Source of the DNA: a virus
Taxonomy: Duplodnaviria > Heunggongvirae > Uroviricota > Caudoviricetes
Length of the DNA: 5,410 nucleotides
Virus record (IMG/VR): IMGVR_UViG_2534681651_000009
Strand: one strand, 5' to 3'
Every line of letters begins with the position of its first letter. Position 1 is the first letter of the stretch. Below are positions 1 to 5,410 of this stretch, in pieces. A model generated the notes under the pieces. The model worked only from the letters and a program-made list of their open reading frames with translations. It had not been told where the DNA came from and did not search any database. The position numbers and the translations under genes are program-made.

Positions 1-978
1 AGGTTACCTGGATTTTTCAAAGGCAAGATAACCGAATCCCATCTCGGCAAGGAGCTGCTGGAAAAAGTTGATCTGACGGAGGATAACGCCAGCAGACTGG
101 AGGAGTTTTCGAAAGAGTGGAAGGACGCTAACGATAAATGGAATGCCATGTGGGGCGTCAAAATTGAGCAGACCAAAGACGGCAGGCATTATGTCGCGGG
201 TATTGGCCTCAGCATGGAGGACACGGAGGAAGGCAAGCTGAGCCAGTTTCTGGTTGCCGCTAACCGTATCGCGTTTATTGACCCGGCAAACGGGAATGAA
301 ACGCCGATGTTTGTGGCGCAGGGCAACCAGATATTCATGAACGACGTGTTCCTGAAGCGCCTGACAGCCCCCACCATTACCAGCGGTGGCAGTCCTCCGG
401 TATTTTCCCTGACATCAGACGGAAAGCTGACCGCTAAAAATGCGGATATCAGTGGTAGTGTGAATGCGAACGCCGGGACGCTCAACAATGTCACGGTAAA
501 TGAAAACTGTACGATTAAGGGCATGCTGGAGGCGACTCAGGTCAGAGGTGACTTCGTTAAAGCTGTATCCAAATCATTTCCGAAACAGGCTGGTACGTGG
601 GGTAACACGGAAACACCAAACGGGACGGTTACAGTCACCATCAGCGATGATCATAACTTTGACCGTCAAATCATTATTCCGCCCATTATCTTTAACGGAA
701 TAGCGTATAGCGATCCGGGAAGTGGTAATAACCCGGGAGGTACAAGATACACGGGTTATGGTTTTGAAGTTCGCAAAAACGGTGTATTAATCGCATCCAG
801 AGAAACTAAAGGGGCCATTCCCGGTAGCTACAGTGCGGTTATTGATATGCCGAGTGGCAGGGGAAGCGTCACTCTGGAGTTTAAGGTTTTCCATAAAGGC
901 AATCAGTGGGCAGGTAATATCACCGACTGTACGGTGATTGTGACCAAAAAAGCCGCTTCCGGCATCAGTATTCGTTGA
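1..978 (+). CDS. J: Central tail fibre / host-specificity protein J, C-terminal ~326 codons (5'-partial; the ORF runs off the window start)
   Basis: Frame 1 is open from nt 1 with no stop until TGA at 976-978 (the ORF track lists only 148-978 from the first Met). Translation contains ...[45 protein letters not shown]..., which I recognise from memory as the C-terminal region of lambda gpJ. Sits directly upstream of lom, as in lambda. The last ~150 residues look divergent from my recollection of lambda J. Confidence 0.88.
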
Positions 979-998
979 AATTGTTATAACCCATATAA

Positions 999-1026
999 GG
1001 GCACCAGAAATGGTGCCTTTTTTATT
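999..1026 (+). terminator. Putative rho-independent terminator between J and lom
   Basis: Perfect 6-bp stem GGCACC (1000-1005) / GGTGCC (1012-1017) with a 6-nt loop, followed by TTTTTTATT (1018-1026). Located 21 nt after the J stop codon. Confidence 0.6.
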
Positions 1027-1047
1027 GCAGAAAAGCGAGAGGTAATT

Positions 1048-1647
1048 ATGCGTAAACTTTATGCCGCCATTTTGTCCGCAGCCATTTGTCTGGCCGTATC
1101 CGGTGCGCCTGCATGGGCATCTGAACATCAGTCCACGCTGAGCGCGGGGTATCTTCATGCCCGGACCAACGTTCCCGGCAGTGATGATCTGAACGGGATT
1201 AACGTGAAATACCGTTATGAGTTTACGGATACGCTGGGGCTGGTGACGTCATTCAGCTATGCAGGAGACAAGAATCGCCAGCTGACCCGTTACAGCGATA
1301 CCCGCTGGCATGAAGATTCCGTGCGTAACCGCTGGTTCAGCGTGATGGCGGGGCCGTCTGTGCGCGTGAATGAATGGTTCAGCGCGTATGCGATGGCGGG
1401 TATGGCTTACAGCCGTGTTTCGACTTTCTCCGGAGATTATATCCGCGTAACTGACAACAAGGGGAAAACGCACGATGTGCTGACCGGAAGTGATGACGGT
1501 CGCCACAGCGACACGTCTCTGGCATGGGGGGCTGGCGTGCAGTTTAACCCGACCGAATCCGTGGCCATTGATATTGCTTATGAAGGTTCCGGCAGTGGCG
1601 ACTGGCGCACTGACGGTTTCATCGTTGGTGTCGGTTATAAATTCTGA
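1048..1647 (+). CDS. lom: Outer membrane protein Lom (Ail/Lom/PagC family beta-barrel), 199 aa
   Basis: RBS GAGAGG at 1036-1041 precedes ATG 1048. N-terminal signal peptide MRKLYAAILSAAICLAVSGAPAWA with an AWA/S signal-peptidase I site. The remainder is a near-match to lambda Lom as I recall it, with alternating aromatic/hydrophobic beta-strand pattern and C-terminal ...GVGYKF. Position after J matches lambda. Confidence 0.93.
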   Translation: MRKLYAAILSAAICLAVSGAPAWASEHQSTLSAGYLHARTNVPGSDDLNGINVKYRYEFTDTLGLVTSFSYAGDKNRQLTRYSDTRWHEDSVRNRWFSVMAGPSVRVNEWFSAYAMAGMAYSRVSTFSGDYIRVTDNKGKTHDVLTGSDDGRHSDTSLAWGAGVQFNPTESVAIDIAYEGSGSGDWRTDGFIVGVGYKF

Positions 1648-1673
1648 TTAGCCAGGTAACACAGTGTTATGAC

Positions 1674-1700
1674 AGCCCGCCGGTTCAGGCGGGCTTTTTT
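1674..1700 (+). terminator. Putative rho-independent terminator downstream of lom
   Basis: GC-rich stem GCCCGCC (1675-1681) / GGCGGGC (1688-1694) with loop GGTTCA, followed by TTTTTT (1695-1700). Located 27 nt after the lom stop and about 12 nt before the stf start. Confidence 0.7.
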
Positions 1701-1711
1701 GTGGAGTGGAT

Positions 1712-4114
1712 ATGGCAGCAGTAAAAATCTCAGGTGTGCTGAAAGATGGTGCGGGAAAACCAATACAGAACTGCACTATTCAACTGAAGGCAAAGCGTAA
1801 CAGCACCACGGTACTGGTCAACACAGTGGCCTCTAAAAATCCGGATGAAGCCGGGCGTTACAGCATGGATGTTGAGTATGGCCAGTACAGCGTCACCCTG
1901 CTGGTTGAAGGTTTTCCGCCTTCACATGCCGGAACCATTACCGTCTATGAAGGTTCCAGACCAGGTACGCTGAATGATTTTCTCGGTGCCATGACGGAAG
2001 ATGATGTCATGCCGGAGGCATTGCGTCGTTTTGAGGAAATGGTGGAAGAAGCGGCACGCAACGCTGAAGCCGCCTCTCAGAGCGCAGCGGCGGCAAAGAA
2101 ATCCGAAACTGCAGCGGCATCATCGAAGAACGCGGCGAAAACCTCAGAAACGAATGCAGCTAACAGCGCACAGGCGGCAGCGGCCTCGCAGACTGCATCG
2201 GCAAACTCCGCAACAGCAGCTAAAAAATCAGAAACCAACGCGAAAAATAGCGAGACAGCCGCAACGACGAGCGAAACCAACGCAAAGTCCAGCCAGACGG
2301 CAGCGAAGACCAGCGAAACGAATGCTAAAGCCAGTGAAACTGCAGCAAAAAACAGCCAGGTTTCAGCAGCCCAAAGCGAGAGCGCGGCAGCCGGTTCTGC
2401 GACTTCAGCAGCCGGATCAGCAACTGCTGCGGCTAACAGCCAGAAAGCTGCGAAGACGAGTGAAACTAACGCAAAGTCCAGCCAGACGGCAGCGAAGACC
2501 AGCGAAACGAATGCCAAAGCCAGTGAAACTGTGGCGAAAAGCAGTCAGGATGCAGCGGCTCAAAGCGAGAGTGCCGCAGCCAGTTCTGCAAGCGCGGCGG
2601 CTGCTTCTGCCACTGCATCAGCTAACAGTCAAAAAGCAGCAAAAACCAGTGAAACCAACGCAAAGGTGAGCGAAACAGCGGCTACGAACTCAGCGAAAGC
2701 ATCGGCAGCAAGCCAGACGGCAGCTAAAGCAAGCGAAGATGCAGCCAGAGAGTACGCAAGCCAGGCTGCGGAGCCGTATAAATATGTCTTACAGCCGTTG
2801 CCTGATGTGTGGATACCGTTTAACGATTCACTGGATATGATTACCGGGTTTGCTCCTGGATATAAGAGAATCACAGTTGGTGACGATGTTATTGCATTGC
2901 CGTCTGAAAAGGTTGTTTCATTTACCAGGGCGTCAACTGCAACGTATATAGATAAGTCTGGGTGTTTTGCTGAATCAGCGATAAATGAACCACGTTTTGA
3001 AAAAGATGGTCTGCTCATTGAAGGTCAGAGAACGAATACTTTTTCTTATACGAATACACCAGTATCGTGGAACTATGACACTGCTAACTTAACTATTACC
3101 ACGGGAGTTGATGAGTATGGTTTCAGTTATGGTTTGTTTGGCGTTAAAGAAACATCCACAACTGAAAGGGCGACATTAATTTCTACTGGATATACCAGGG
3201 TTATTTCAGTTTCGGCAAATGAATCAGTTACTTTATCCTGCAGAGTTAAAAAAGTAAGTGGGGATGGTATTATCACGTTGCGTCCAAGAATATCATATGT
3301 TAACGACGATGGCTCAAGTAACACACTGACCGCTGGCGCATATATTGATTGCGAGACTGGCGATATGTTGAGTTATTCTGGAGGTGAGGCGGCAACTTAT
3401 AACATATTCAGAGAGTCTAATGGATGGATTCGTGTTGAGTTTACCTACAAATCACCAGAAGCAAAAAATATGTATGGGCGTTTTGAGTTTGGAGCACATC
3501 AACGATCAATCAAGTCTGGCGATAAATTAATGTTAACAACCCCTCAATTCGAAAAGGGACTAAACGCGTCATCTTTTATCATCACAACAGAGGTCGGTGC
3601 CACGAGAGCAAGTGACCAGGTAATCATACCTATACCTTTCAATTGGGCAACTCCACCAGTTAGTGTTCTCATGGAAGTTAATGTTAATTGGGATTCTGAA
3701 ATGCCTAATTTAGAAGGCTCTGCGCGTTTGCTTAATATCTCAATTACAGGGGCGACGACTGAAGTTTCTGATGAAAGTTATATGTATTTTGGTTTTACCA
3801 ATCGTGGTAAAAGGCTAATTATCACCAATGGCAAAGGAACAAAAACAGAATATAAAGCATATGGGAATAGAGAGAAAAGGAAATTTGTTACTGGCTTTAA
3901 GTTTACAGAAGATAAACAGTTGCAGGTTGTTGTTGATGGAATTTTAGGTGGCAGCTCCCCGTCTCTGCATACATTGCAACGTTATACTGCCGGTAATATT
4001 AATATCGGTGGACAATCATCCAGTGGCAACAGACACCTGTTCGGTCATGTGAAAAATTTACGCATTTGGCATAAAGAATTAACTGAGGCACAAATGGGGG
4101 AGAGTATTAAATGA
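1712..4114 (+). CDS. stf: Side tail fibre (Stf-like) protein, ~800 aa, mosaic: lambda-Stf-type N-terminus, repetitive Ala/Ser/Thr-rich shaft, and a divergent low-GC C-terminal putative receptor-binding region
   Basis: ORF track gives 1706-4114 from a GTG; I prefer ATG 1712 because GGAG at 1703-1706 sits 5 nt upstream and the product then starts MAAVKISGVLKDG..., matching lambda Stf (orf-401) as I recall it. The first ~110 aa resemble lambda Stf. The shaft carries repeated K-[TSK]-SETNAK motifs. From about aa 350 the sequence is unrelated to the Gly/His-rich lambda Stf C-terminus and ends ...HLFGHVKNLRIWHKELTEAQMGESIK, a motif reminiscent of the last strand of LamG/concanavalin-like jelly-roll domains. 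Stop TGA at 4112-4114. Confidence 0.85.
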   Translation: MAAVKISGVLKDGAGKPIQNCTIQLKAKRNSTTVLVNTVASKNPDEAGRYSMDVEYGQYSVTLLVEGFPPSHAGTITVYEGSRPGTLNDFLGAMTEDDVMPEALRRFEEMVEEAARNAEAASQSAAAAKKSETAAASSKNAAKTSETNAANSAQAAAASQTASANSATAAKKSETNAKNSETAATTSETNAKSSQTAAKTSETNAKASETAAKNSQVSAAQSESAAAGSATSAAGSATAAANSQKAAKTSETNAKSSQTAAKTSETNAKASETVAKSSQDAAAQSESAAASSASAAAASATASANSQKAAKTSETNAKVSETAATNSAKASAASQTAAKASEDAAREYASQAAEPYKYVLQPLPDVWIPFNDSLDMITGFAPGYKRITVGDDVIALPSEKVVSFTRASTATYIDKSGCFAESAINEPRFEKDGLLIEGQRTNTFSYTNTPVSWNYDTANLTITTGVDEYGFSYGLFGVKETSTTERATLISTGYTRVISVSANESVTLSCRVKKVSGDGIITLRPRISYVNDDGSSNTLTAGAYIDCETGDMLSYSGGEAATYNIFRESNGWIRVEFTYKSPEAKNMYGRFEFGAHQRSIKSGDKLMLTTPQFEKGLNASSFIITTEVGATRASDQVIIPIPFNWATPPVSVLMEVNVNWDSEMPNLEGSARLLNISITGATTEVSDESYMYFGFTNRGKRLIITNGKGTKTEYKAYGNREKRKFVTGFKFTEDKQLQVVVDGILGGSSPSLHTLQRYTAGNINIGGQSSSGNRHLFGHVKNLRIWHKELTEAQMGESIK
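2279..2656 (+). repeat. In-frame tandem duplication (2 x 189 bp, period 63 codons) inside the fibre shaft, embedded in a larger low-complexity region (~2050-2760)
   Basis: AACGCAAAGTCCAGCCAGACGGCAGCGAAGACCAGCGAAACGAATGC occurs at 2279 and again at 2468 with one mismatch; the rest of each unit is similar but diverged. Protein-level copies are TSETNAKSSQTAAKTSETNAKASETAAK... and ...ASETVAK... A third partial copy begins near 2657. Confidence 0.85.
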
Positions 4115-4392
4115 AAGATTTAACACTCAAATTTGCAGACAGGACCGACTTTTCGACCTTTATGGATAGCATTGGTTATGAAGATGACGAGGTAATGCAG
4201 AACAATGTTCTCATTGATGTGATAGGTAACGTGTACAAAGAAACCGGAGAACTGACTGAAGATGGCGAGCCGGTATGTGTTAAGGAAGACGGATATTTTG
4301 TAAACGTGCGCATCATTAATGATGCAAAAAAATCGTCAATATTCGATAAATACGCGGTTGTTGTTGAGCATCAACTTCGTGGCTGGATGTGA
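4111..4392 (+). CDS. Hypothetical small acidic protein (93 aa), start-stop overlapped with stf; possible fibre accessory or chaperone, or a moron
   Basis: ATG 4111-4113 overlaps the stf stop TGA 4112-4114 (ATGA overlap), implying translational coupling. Product has 19 Asp/Glu against about 11 Lys/Arg and no hydrophobic segment. Low GC, like the stf 3' region. I do not recognise the family. Confidence 0.6.
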   Translation: MKDLTLKFADRTDFSTFMDSIGYEDDEVMQNNVLIDVIGNVYKETGELTEDGEPVCVKEDGYFVNVRIINDAKKSSIFDKYAVVVEHQLRGWM

Positions 4393-4401
4393 GGTAGAGA
4401 A

Positions 4402-5106
4402 ATGGCTACATCGACAGTAATTCCAGGAGATATCACCAAGCTAAAGGGGGATGTCAGTAAAGCTAAGGAAGATATTTCATCAATTAGCGGAAAAGTATCA
4501 ACGCTTCAGACTGATATGGACAGTGCAAAGCAGGATATCAGTACCAGATACACAAAAACAGAAGTGGATAATAAGCTGAAAAACAAAGTGGAAGTGAACG
4601 ATCTGGAAAGCGGTCGTTATGGCGGAGATTTTTATCCACTGACAGGTCGTGAAGCGTTTTATTTATGGGGATTGGGCACAACTACAGCGGCGGCAAATCT
4701 TTATCTTAATCCTGACCCTGCAATTTCGTCTGTGCTGCGGTCAACATCGTCTATCCGCTATAAACATTCAGTAGAGACGATAGATTCAGAGCACGCCGAT
4801 CTCATTTTCAGGATGCGCCCTGTGTGGTACAGGTCGCAATGCGAAAATGACAGGCGTGACTGGGGATTCTATGGATTGATTGCCGAGGAAGTTGGAGAAA
4901 TTGCCCCTCAGTTTGTACACTGGCGACCAGCCAACGAAGATGATGCACCGGAAACCATTTCCAGCAATGGCCTTGTTGCCGAAGGTGTAATGTACGAACG
5001 TCTGGTTGTTCCACTGATTCACCATATCCAGAAGCTGACTGAAAGAGTTGATGAACTTGAGTCAGAATTAAAGTTGTTATCCGTTTCCCGAAGCGATATC
5101 GGATAA
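4402..5106 (+). CDS. Coiled-coil protein with a C-terminal peptidase-S74-like intramolecular chaperone domain (234 aa), free-standing rather than fused to a fibre
   Basis: GAGG at 4391-4394 sits 7 nt upstream of ATG 4402. The N-terminal ~70 aa are heptad-like (KLKGDVSKAKEDISSISGKVSTLQTDMDSAKQDIS). The C-terminal ~120 aa match the S74 chaperone-of-endosialidase pattern as I recall it: S116-S-I-R-Y-K121 (Ser/Lys dyad spacing), MRPVWY, GLIAEEVGEIAPQFV, and YERLVVPLIHHIQKLTERVDELESEL. Stop TAA at 5104-5106. Confidence 0.7.
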   Translation: MATSTVIPGDITKLKGDVSKAKEDISSISGKVSTLQTDMDSAKQDISTRYTKTEVDNKLKNKVEVNDLESGRYGGDFYPLTGREAFYLWGLGTTTAAANLYLNPDPAISSVLRSTSSIRYKHSVETIDSEHADLIFRMRPVWYRSQCENDRRDWGFYGLIAEEVGEIAPQFVHWRPANEDDAPETISSNGLVAEGVMYERLVVPLIHHIQKLTERVDELESELKLLSVSRSDIG

Positions 5107-5112
5107 AGGAGG
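5106..5112 (+). promoter_or_regulatory. Consensus Shine-Dalgarno (AAGGAGG) for the downstream membrane-protein ORF
   Basis: AAGGAGG at 5106-5112 overlaps the preceding stop codon and lies 4 nt upstream of ATG 5117. Confidence 0.7.
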
Positions 5113-5116
5113 CGTA

Positions 5117-5410
5117 ATGGATATAACACCTTTCCTTCATGCACTTTGTGCTGTGGCTGCGCAGGTACTGGTTGGTCTTTTTACCGGAAACTGGGCTTAC
5201 GGGGCGATAGCTGGTTGTACGTTCTTCATTGCGCGTGAACACACCCAGGCAGAATATCGCTGGATTGAAATGTTTGGGCATGGCAAGCGAATGAATATGC
5301 CGTGGTGGGGCGGTTTTGATCCGCGCGCTTGGGATGTGGCAAGCCTGATGGATTTTGCTGTGCCGGTGGTGGCGTGTCTGCTGGTCTGGCTGTTGGTTAA
5401 TCGTGGGTGA
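5117..5410 (+). CDS. Hypothetical small integral membrane protein (97 aa, about two predicted TM helices); possible moron such as a superinfection-exclusion or membrane-acting protein
   Basis: Consensus SD upstream. Hydrophobic stretches at about aa 6-38 (FLHALCAVAAQVLVGLFTGNWAYGAIAGCTFFIA) and 75-95 (VASLMDFAVPVVACLLVWLLV) flank a charged/aromatic loop (EHTQAEYRWIEMFGHGKRMNMPWWGGFDPRAW). GC content returns to roughly 50% or more. Stop TGA at 5408-5410. Family not recognised. Confidence 0.6.
   Translation: MDITPFLHALCAVAAQVLVGLFTGNWAYGAIAGCTFFIAREHTQAEYRWIEMFGHGKRMNMPWWGGFDPRAWDVASLMDFAVPVVACLLVWLLVNRG

What the first reader, a model, noticed from the sequence alone, without database searches (positions are those of the whole stretch)
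500..978. J C-terminal receptor-recognition region appears diverged from lambda J
The conserved block ...[38 protein letters not shown]... is followed by a C-terminal ~150 aa ending ...[10 protein letters not shown], whereas lambda J ends, as I recall, ...GISVV with many differences upstream. The extreme C-terminus of J determines the outer-membrane receptor (LamB for lambda), so this phage may use a different porin or receptor.
Basis: partly seen in the sequence, partly recalled or inferred. Interest (0 to 1): 0.4.

Follow-up and report, generated by a model that had tools for sequence, protein, structure and literature searches.

The report
Phage-434-type J tail tip, OmpC-binding
The end of this prophage's tail-tip protein J is not lambda's LamB-binding domain but the long-known phage 434 version, which uses the porin OmpC; it is found in about 4 of 10 complete E. 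coli genomes, so it is ordinary.

Summary
Window 1-978 (+) is the 3' end of gene J. Up to about aa 166 it is ~94% identical to lambda J. The last 159 aa (nt 499-975) are only 37.6% identical to lambda, with indels at four sites. The interpretation (a different receptor) is supported and can be made specific. This tail is 95% identical (151/159, no gaps) to the J receptor-binding domain of phage 434, the classical OmpC-dependent lambdoid phage. It is 100% identical to J of phage Ayreon (isolated on E. coli K-12) and of many long-tailed Stx1a/Stx2c phages. All eight differences from 434 lie at sites that vary among natural 434-type alleles. It is a different allele (45%) from the structurally solved OmpC binder A8/phi330, and it is unrelated to the J C-terminus of HK022. 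The allele occurs in 2,112 of 5,426 complete E. coli genomes. OmpC use is inferred by homology and was not tested here. One caveat lies outside the finding's coordinates: a T5 run at nt 13-17 (T6 in lambda and in a 99.9% identical prophage) puts the whole C-terminal part out of frame with upstream J. This is either a real inactivating frameshift or a sequencing error. Novelty: already known.

The parts
1..978 (+). 3' end of gene J (tail tip / central tail fibre), reading frame 1, stop codon at 976-978. It corresponds to lambda J residues ~817-1132 and 434 J ~817-1137.
   Evidence: PDB sequence hits to lambda gpJ and A8 gpJ with E 1e-130 to 1e-139. Annotated as gpJ in the 99.9% identical AST215 prophage, where J is intact at 1137 aa.
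13..17 (+). T5 homopolymer where lambda and the AST215 prophage have T6. This is a 1-nt deletion. Upstream J codons (GYLDF) are in frame 2 and would run into TAA at nt 29-31, while the J-homologous sequence continues in frame 1.
   Evidence: Alignment and sequence. Translations of frames 1 and 2. Every row listed from the 2,588 complete E. coli genomes holding this segment spans 161 bases (T6), and none is a 100% match.
97..480 (+). Conserved tail-tip fibre part (helical shaft and beta-prism region of lambda gpJ), nearly identical to lambda and 434.
   Evidence: Pfam PF09327 Phage_Tail_Tip, aa 33-160, E 1.7e-34. 92-100% nt identity to lambda and 93-98% to 434.
499..975 (+). Host-range module that differs from lambda: the end of the beta-prism plus the receptor-binding domain. 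It is of the phage 434 type.
   Evidence: 37.6% identity to lambda, 95.0% to 434, 100% to Ayreon, 45.1% to phi330/A8.
565..972 (+). Ig-like C-terminal receptor-binding domain of GpJ.
   Evidence: Pfam PF12421 Ig_GpJ_C, aa 189-324, E 1.4e-26, above the curated cut-off. The AlphaFold2 model is a beta-sandwich over aa ~185-316 with mean pLDDT 77. The best PDB fold matches are 8xck, 9wca, 8xcj and 9wcb.
574..621 (+). Loop region 1 (aa 192-207, [16 protein letters not shown]). It has a +2 aa insertion relative to lambda (after lambda residue 1011) and carries 4 of the 8 differences from 434 (S192A, Q196K, A197V, N207D).
   Evidence: Alignment and indel map, polymorphism map. Assignment to a receptor-facing loop is inferred from the indel position, from the lambda L1-L4 description and from the AF3 description of a 434 loop in PMC12502783.
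706..744 (+). Loop region 2 (aa 236-248, [13 protein letters not shown]). It has a +6 aa insertion relative to lambda (after lambda 1051). Positions 237 and 238 are polymorphic.
   Evidence: It corresponds to the phi330 hairpin E953-S962 that is predicted to enter the OmpC barrel.
805..828 (+). Loop region 3 (aa 269-276). It has a +1 aa insertion relative to lambda (after lambda 1078).
   Evidence: It coincides with the indel-rich site 1077-1078 of natural J variants (PMC6646904).
889..921 (+). Loop region 4 (aa 297-307, [11 protein letters not shown]). It is a net 4 aa shorter than lambda 1099-1114. Positions 298 and 303 are polymorphic, with W/R/G at 303.
   Evidence: The lambda h434 hybrid also has W at the position equivalent to 303.
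997..1020 (+). Terminator-like hairpin followed by a T run, just downstream of J.
   Evidence: Terminators are annotated at the same place in phage 434 and Ayreon.

Best explanation
Window 499-975 encodes the receptor-binding module of a phage 434-type J protein (the classical h434 host-range allele), carried by a lambdoid prophage of E. coli. As in lambda, three J chains should form the central tail fibre. Its tip would be a trimer of Ig-like domains whose bottom loops insert into a trimeric outer-membrane porin, and binding would trigger opening of the tail tip and DNA ejection. In this allele the four bottom loops differ from lambda's in length and sequence, and the porin recognised is most likely OmpC rather than LamB. 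What is shown here: the identity of the allele, the Pfam domains, the fold, the mosaic junction and the prevalence. What is inferred: OmpC binding, by homology with 434, and the trigger mechanism, by homology with the lambda and A8 structures. In this particular sequence the module is out of frame with upstream J because of a 1-nt deletion, so if that deletion is real the prophage makes no functional J.
For: Allele identity: the last 159 aa are 151/159 identical to 434 J with no gaps, E 2e-104. They are 100% identical to Ayreon J, and Ayreon was isolated on a K-12 derivative. The whole J of the 99.9% identical AST215 prophage is 1137 aa, the same length as 434 J, with 27 differences. Receptor evidence from papers: 434 uses OmpC (protein Ib), and lambda carrying 434's J binds OmpC (Hantke 1978; Fuerst & Bingham 1978, as cited). 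PMC12502783 models 434 J docking on OmpC. The sequenced lambda h434 imm21 hybrid has 434 sequence from J residue ~700-750 onwards, including this domain, and carries W at the position of window W303. Module logic: swapping only lambda J residues 964-end for natural variants (A8, 1A2) retargets lambda from LamB to OmpC (PMC11338833), and the window's junction with lambda lies at the same place. Domain and fold: PF12421 and PF09327, and the model's best PDB matches are lambda gpJ and A8 gpJ, including the A8-OmpC complex 9wcb. All eight differences from 434 are at sites that vary among natural 434-type alleles.
Against: No experiment on this exact haplotype's receptor was found: Ayreon's receptor is unreported, and the 1A2 and A8 sequences could not be retrieved from supplements. 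Five or six of the eight differences from 434 lie in or next to putative receptor-facing loops. In lambda four J substitutions are enough to add OmpF use (PMC6646904), and A8 and 1A2 differ in which OmpC variants they accept. The fine specificity could therefore differ from 434's. The h434 hybrid also carries 434 lom, stf and tfa, so that hybrid alone does not map OmpC use to J. The T5/T6 frameshift may mean the domain is not made at all in this genome.
Confidence: 0.8

Rival explanations
1. The domain is 434-type, but this haplotype (Q196, A197, N207, S237, R287, W303) recognises a porin other than OmpC, for example OmpF, or only a subset of OmpC variants different from 434's.
For: The differences from 434 cluster in the indel-rich loop regions. 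A few J substitutions change porin use in lambda. A8 and 1A2 differ in their OmpC-variant range. The same RBD occurs in O157 Stx1a/Stx2c phages and in a K-12-infecting phage, hosts whose OmpC proteins differ.
Against: There is 95% identity with no indels and identical loop lengths. Every variant residue recurs in many natural 434-type alleles. W303 is present in the laboratory h434 hybrid. Ayreon, with an identical RBD, was isolated on K-12, as 434 was propagated on K-12.
Confidence: 0.12
2. In this genome the feature is a dead remnant: J is inactivated by a genuine 1-nt deletion in the T6 run, so no receptor-binding domain is attached to a tail and the receptor question is moot for this prophage. 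This concerns expression, not domain identity, so it is compatible with the best explanation.
For: T5 replaces T6 at nt 13-17, and the upstream frame stops at nt 29-31. The nine other homopolymers of 6 or more bases agree with AST215, so there is no general homopolymer-error signature. From general knowledge, homopolymer indels are a common way for prophage genes to decay.
Against: Only 12 nt of upstream sequence are in the window, so the upstream frame is inferred from identity to lambda and AST215. The deletion is not shared by any listed match among the 2,588 genomes, as expected equally for a private mutation or a single sequencing error. The downstream 325 codons are free of stops and of any other damage, so the deletion, if real, is very recent.
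Confidence: 0.4
3. The domain still binds LamB like lambda J, and the sequence divergence is neutral drift within a LamB-binding family.
For: Same fold and Pfam family as lambda J. Some conserved core motifs are shared (DRQI, VIDMP.G.G, KK...GIS).
Against: Only 37.6% identity, with indels at all four loop sites that correspond to the receptor-contacting or indel-rich regions of lambda J. The nearly identical 434 domain confers OmpC, not LamB, dependence. The junction with lambda-like sequence is abrupt, which indicates module exchange rather than drift.
Confidence: 0.02

Closest known systems
Phage 434 central tail fibre J (UMO75286.1, OL657226), the h434 host-range allele
   Same: Full-length architecture and length (1137 aa in the intact AST215 copy). 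95% identity with no gaps over the receptor-binding 159 aa and ~97% over the preceding 162 aa. Lom follows downstream.
   Different: Eight substitutions in the last 159 aa (E168Q, S192A, Q196K, A197V, N207D, S237D, R287G, W303R, written window residue then 434 residue), all at naturally polymorphic sites. The side tail fibre downstream differs (802 aa here, 437 aa in 434). The window copy carries the T5 frameshift.
Phage Ayreon J (ATE85479.1), and J of Perceval and of Stx1a/Stx2c long-tailed converting phages
   Same: 100% identical over the last 159 aa. Lom follows downstream.
   Different: Upstream of about nt 460 Ayreon J is only 42-88% identical at nucleotide level (58% at protein level over aa 1-166). 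The RBD has therefore been exchanged as a module between different J backbones.
Lambda J (P03749; PDB 8xck, 8xcj), LamB-binding
   Same: Same domain order, Pfam families and fold. ~94% identity up to lambda residue ~978. The presumed trigger mechanism is shared.
   Different: 37.6% identity in the RBD. Loop indels of +2, +6, +1 and a net -4 aa. Different receptor.
A8 gpJ / phage phi330 J (PDB 9wca, 9wcb; PV189401), OmpC-binding
   Same: Same family and fold. Experimentally OmpC-dependent. A structure with OmpC exists.
   Different: Only 45% identity to the window RBD, with different loop lengths and sequences. It is a separate allele, so its OmpC contacts cannot simply be transferred.

Membership tests
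Lambda-like GpJ central tail fibre, C-terminal module | Pfam PF09327 (tail tip fibre) followed by PF12421 (Ig_GpJ_C receptor-binding domain) at the C-terminus, scoring above the curated cut-offs | tested here: met
   119 bits against a cut-off of 22 (aa 33-160), and 93.6 bits against 26.2 (aa 189-324).
Lambda-like GpJ central tail fibre, C-terminal module | Fold similar to solved gpJ tail-fibre structures | tested here: met
   AF2 model with pLDDT 77. Foldseek top hits are 8xck, 9wca, 8xcj and 9wcb, E 1e-14 to 1e-16, TM about 0.6.
Lambda-like GpJ central tail fibre, C-terminal module | Homotrimer whose bottom loops insert into a trimeric porin and trigger tail opening | not testable with these tools
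   Only a monomer model could be made. The mechanism is taken from PMC11101478.
Lambda-like GpJ central tail fibre, C-terminal module | An intact J reading frame that links the module to the tail-tip hub domains | tested here: inconclusive
   The T5 run (T6 elsewhere) at nt 13-17 shifts the frame. A sequencing error cannot be told from a real mutation.
Phage 434-type (h434) J host-range allele | Near-identity, without indels, to the 434 J receptor-binding domain | tested here: met
   151/159 identical, no gaps, E 2e-104.
Phage 434-type (h434) J host-range allele | Differences confined to positions that vary among natural members of the allele | tested here: met
   All eight differences are at recurrently polymorphic sites among 25 cluster representatives plus 434 and the h434 hybrid.
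Phage 434-type (h434) J host-range allele | OmpC-dependent adsorption and infection | not testable with these tools
   Known for 434 and lambda h434 from the literature. No data were found for this haplotype.
Lambda-type LamB-binding J domain | High identity to lambda J 970-1132, with loops L1-L4 of the same length | tested here: not met
   37.6% identity, with indels at four loop sites.
A8/phi330-type OmpC-binding J domain | High identity to the A8/phi330 RBD | tested here: not met
   45.1% identity, and the loops differ.
J tail tip of cor-carrying lambdoid phages such as HK022 (FhuA dependence is from my own knowledge, not tested) | J C-terminus homologous to HK022 J, with the cor exclusion gene downstream | tested here: not met
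   No similarity of window aa 125-325 to HK022 J (best E 3.0). The gene downstream of J here is lom, not cor.

The most novel reading that the evidence does not exclude
The handful of recurrently polymorphic loop residues in 434-type J domains (192, 196, 197, 207, 237, 238, 287, 298, 303) may form a natural specificity code that matches particular OmpC variants of E. coli lineages. In that case the window's haplotype, shared by O157 Stx1a/Stx2c phages and the K-12 phage Ayreon, would have a different OmpC-variant range from 434 itself. A still less likely reading is that the T5/T6 run acts as a slippage switch for J.
Probability: 0.25. Interest if true: 0.3.

Novelty: already known. Interest (0 to 1): 0.1.

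Why it matters
It matters little as a discovery. The allele has been known genetically since the 1970s as the h434 host range, it is sequenced in phage 434, and it is present in about 39% of complete E. coli genomes and in many Stx-converting phages. Its practical value is for annotation: J genes with this C-terminus can be labelled "434-type, probably OmpC-dependent" rather than assumed to be LamB-dependent like lambda. That label is relevant to predicting the host range of Stx phages and to engineering lambda-based delivery particles. The frameshift caveat matters for deciding whether this prophage can still make infectious particles.

Tried and rejected
1. I looked for direct receptor typing of phages carrying this exact RBD (Ayreon, mEp460, mEp332, PhiR49). 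The papers found give genomes only, with no receptor data.
2. I tried to obtain the 1A2 and A8 gpJ sequences from the supplements of PMC11338833 and of the STEC preprint, to see whether 1A2 is a 434-type allele. The sequences are not held as text. The A8 sequence was instead recovered from the PDB 9wca alignment, and it proved to be phi330-type, not 434-type.
3. The 2026 receptor-prediction preprint covers Drexlerviridae-type GpJ and does not treat lambdoid J alleles.
4. I considered whether the allele could be of the HK022 (cor-carrying) type. This was rejected: there is no sequence similarity, and lom rather than cor lies downstream.
5. I tested whether the T5 frameshift is shared with other genomes, which would show it to be real. 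No listed match among the 2,588 genomes holding the segment has it, so the question stays open.
6. The protein homologue search returned mostly short or partial ORFs, and some were chimeric gene calls (P0018-P0024). Their N-terminal columns were ignored in the polymorphism analysis.
7. A translation from coordinate 500 failed because 500 is not in frame, so 499 was used.

Full report
OBSERVATION. Window 1-978 on the + strand, frame 1, is an open frame that ends at a stop codon at 976-978. Lambda J (NC_001416, fetched as L001) ends KKQALGISVV. BLASTP aligns window aa 5-324 with lambda J 817-1131. Split by segment, aa 1-166 are 152/166 identical to lambda (93.8% if the first four, out-of-frame, residues are left out), while aa 167-325 are 62/165 = 37.6% identical. 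At nucleotide level, identity to lambda is 92-100% over nt 283-462, 83% over 463-522 and 33-60% from 523 to 978.

WHAT IT IS. A tblastn search of 50,697 phage records with the last 159 aa found two classes of hit. Seventy-four records are 90-100% identical, and 169 are below 60%, lambda among them at 38%. The 100% class includes phage Ayreon, phage Perceval and many long-tailed Stx1a- and Stx2c-converting phages. Direct alignment with J proteins of known receptor gave the decisive result. The window's last 159 aa are 151/159 (95.0%) identical, without any gap, to J of phage 434 (OL657226; E 2e-104). The preceding 162 aa are about 97% identical to 434 as well. The nearest complete genome, E. 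coli AST215, is 99.9% identical over the whole window. It carries an intact J of 1137 aa, the same length as 434 J, with 27 differences from it, inside a complete lambda-like prophage. The window thus holds the 3' end of a 434-type J gene. By contrast, identity of the RBD is 45.1% to phi330/A8 J and 37.6% to lambda J. There is no detectable similarity to the J homologue of HK022, a cor-carrying phage that is FhuA-dependent to my own knowledge (best E 3.0).

DOMAINS AND FOLD. Pfam places PF09327 (tail tip fibre) on aa 33-160 and PF12421 (Ig_GpJ_C, the receptor-binding domain of GpJ) on aa 189-324, both well above their cut-offs. An AlphaFold2 model of aa 125-325 (mean pLDDT 77) shows a beta-sandwich over aa ~185-316. 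Its best PDB matches are the lambda central fibre (8xck closed; 8xcj bound to LamB) and A8 gpJ (9wca closed; 9wcb bound to OmpC), with E 1e-14 to 1e-16.

HOW IT MOST LIKELY WORKS. For lambda, Ge & Wang (PMC11101478) showed that the trimeric RBD inserts four bottom loops (L1-L4) into LamB. Binding spreads the RBD bases, and the change is transmitted up the beta-prism and helical shaft to open the tail tip. Relative to lambda, the window's domain has indels at four places: +2 aa after lambda 1011, +6 after 1051, +1 after 1078, and a net -4 around 1099-1114. These match the four indel-rich, fast-evolving sites that Maddamsetti et al. linked to receptor shifts (1012, 1048-1049, 1077-1078, 1107; PMC6646904). 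The conserved framework with replaced loops is what one expects for the same trigger machine re-aimed at another porin. I infer that these four sites are the receptor-facing loops; I did not show it.

WHICH RECEPTOR. The literature is consistent that 434 uses OmpC (outer-membrane protein Ib; Hantke 1978, cited). It also agrees that lambda carrying 434's J binds OmpC instead of LamB (Fuerst & Bingham 1978, as summarised in PMC3509688 and PMC11101478). PMC12502783 models 434 J docking onto OmpC. The sequenced lambda h434 imm21 hybrid (OM418627) is lambda-like up to J residue ~680 and 434-like from ~751 onwards. That hybrid also carries 434 lom, stf and tfa, so by itself it does not separate J from the side fibre. 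The Eligo work fills that gap for this protein family. Replacing only lambda J residues 964-end with natural variants (A8, 1A2), in particles carrying an unrelated P2-type side fibre, switched delivery from LamB to OmpC dependence (PMC11338833). The window's junction with lambda-like sequence lies at the same position (lambda 964 = window aa 152; divergence from lambda begins at about aa 158-167). I therefore assign OmpC as the probable receptor, with confidence about 0.8. The allele identity is shown here; the receptor is inferred.

FINE VARIATION. The eight differences from 434 in the last 159 aa are E168Q, S192A, Q196K, A197V, N207D, S237D, R287G and W303R (window residue first). Five or six of them sit in or beside the putative bottom loops. 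Among 25 cluster representatives of 434-type domains, plus 434 and the h434 hybrid, exactly these positions (with 238, 285, 296 and 298) are the recurrently polymorphic ones. Each window residue is shared with several other alleles. The laboratory h434 hybrid itself has W at the 303-equivalent position. Ayreon, with an identical RBD, was isolated on a K-12 derivative. The window's haplotype is thus a standard, functional one. A8 and 1A2 differ in which OmpC variants they accept, so the exact OmpC-variant range of this haplotype cannot be predicted.

A CAVEAT OUTSIDE THE FINDING'S COORDINATES. The window begins AGGTTACCTGGATTTTTCAAAGG. Lambda and AST215 have one more T (T6 rather than T5 at nt 13-17). 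The 12 nt before the run encode GYLD (lambda 813-816) in frame 2, whereas all downstream J homology is in frame 1. Read from upstream, J would end GYLDFSKAR and stop at nt 29-31. This is the only indel against AST215; the other four differences are substitutions, at 594, 1835, 4254 and 5094. None of the nine other homopolymers of 6 or more bases differs. All 25 best matches listed from the 2,588 complete genomes holding this segment span 161 bases, which means T6, and none is a 100% match. So this is either a private, very recent inactivating mutation or a single sequencing error, and I cannot tell which (about 40% real). If it is real, this prophage makes a J lacking the shaft, the prism and the RBD.

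PREVALENCE AND NOVELTY. The RBD-coding DNA (nt 499-978) is found in 2,112 of 5,426 complete E. coli genomes. Of the matching records, 719 are at 99% identity or more, and the features under the listed hits are annotated as gpJ or host specificity protein J. The feature is an already known, very common allele, so interest is low. Ayreon shares only the RBD and not the upstream J. Other genomes share the downstream lom-stf region but not this J end (hits covering only 940-5410). Both patterns illustrate the usual modular exchange at this locus.

WHAT LED NOWHERE. There are no receptor data for Ayreon, the mEp phages or the PhiR phages. The 1A2 and A8 sequences are not in the held supplements. 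The receptor-prediction preprint does not cover lambdoid J. The search for the T5 variant in other genomes was negative.

Noticed in passing
window 13-17 (effect up to 29-31): T5 run where lambda and the 99.9% identical AST215 prophage have T6. This puts the whole J C-terminal part (frame 1) out of frame with upstream J (frame 2, stop at 29-31). It is not seen in any listed match among the 2,588 complete E. coli genomes that hold the segment. It is either a real frameshift pseudogene or a sequencing error.
   Followed up: partly
window 1-520 compared with L004 (Ayreon) and L003 (434): J is itself mosaic. The window is lambda/434-like upstream of about nt 460, where Ayreon is only 42-88% identical, and it is Ayreon-identical downstream. 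The exchange point coincides with the insertion point (lambda aa 964) used to build engineered gpJ chimeras.
   Followed up: yes
L005 (lambda h434 imm21, OM418627), J residues 1049 and 1114: The laboratory h434 hybrid differs from wild-type 434 J at two RBD positions (D1049N and R1114W). The second gives the same W as window aa 303. The hybrid carries 434 DNA from J residue ~700-750 rightwards through lom, stf and tfa.
   Followed up: partly
window 1706-4114 (repeats at 2231-2665): Side tail fibre gene (802 aa; PF08400 N-terminal domain; full-length match to phrog_1419). It has tandem repeats of 42 and 189 nt that encode an Ala/Ser/Thr-rich KTSETNAK-type repeat region. It is much longer than 434 Stf (437 aa).
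   Followed up: partly
window 4111-4392 and 4402-5106: A 93-aa ORF of unknown function (phrog_1361) overlaps the stf stop codon. It is followed by a 234-aa protein with a Peptidase_S74 intramolecular-chaperone domain. That protein matches only the C-terminal ~240 positions of a 1385-position PHROG profile (phrog_3299), so it looks like a short stand-alone fibre tip or a remnant of a longer fibre.
   Followed up: partly
window 5117-5410: A 97-aa hydrophobic ORF of unknown function (phrog_1443, no Pfam match) that ends exactly at the window's end. In AST215 it is followed by a tail fibre assembly pseudogene fragment and then by chromosomal genes, so the window lies at the right end of the prophage.
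   Followed up: partly
window 940-5410 compared with E. coli genomes (H109-H117): In several genomes the lom-stf-downstream block is 96% identical but the match stops at about nt 940-949. The J end and the downstream fibre block therefore assort independently between prophages.
   Followed up: no
window 997-1020 and 1674-1695: Terminator-like hairpins with T runs directly after J and after lom (1048-1647, PF06316 Ail/Lom), at the same positions as the terminators annotated in phages 434 and Ayreon.
   Followed up: partly
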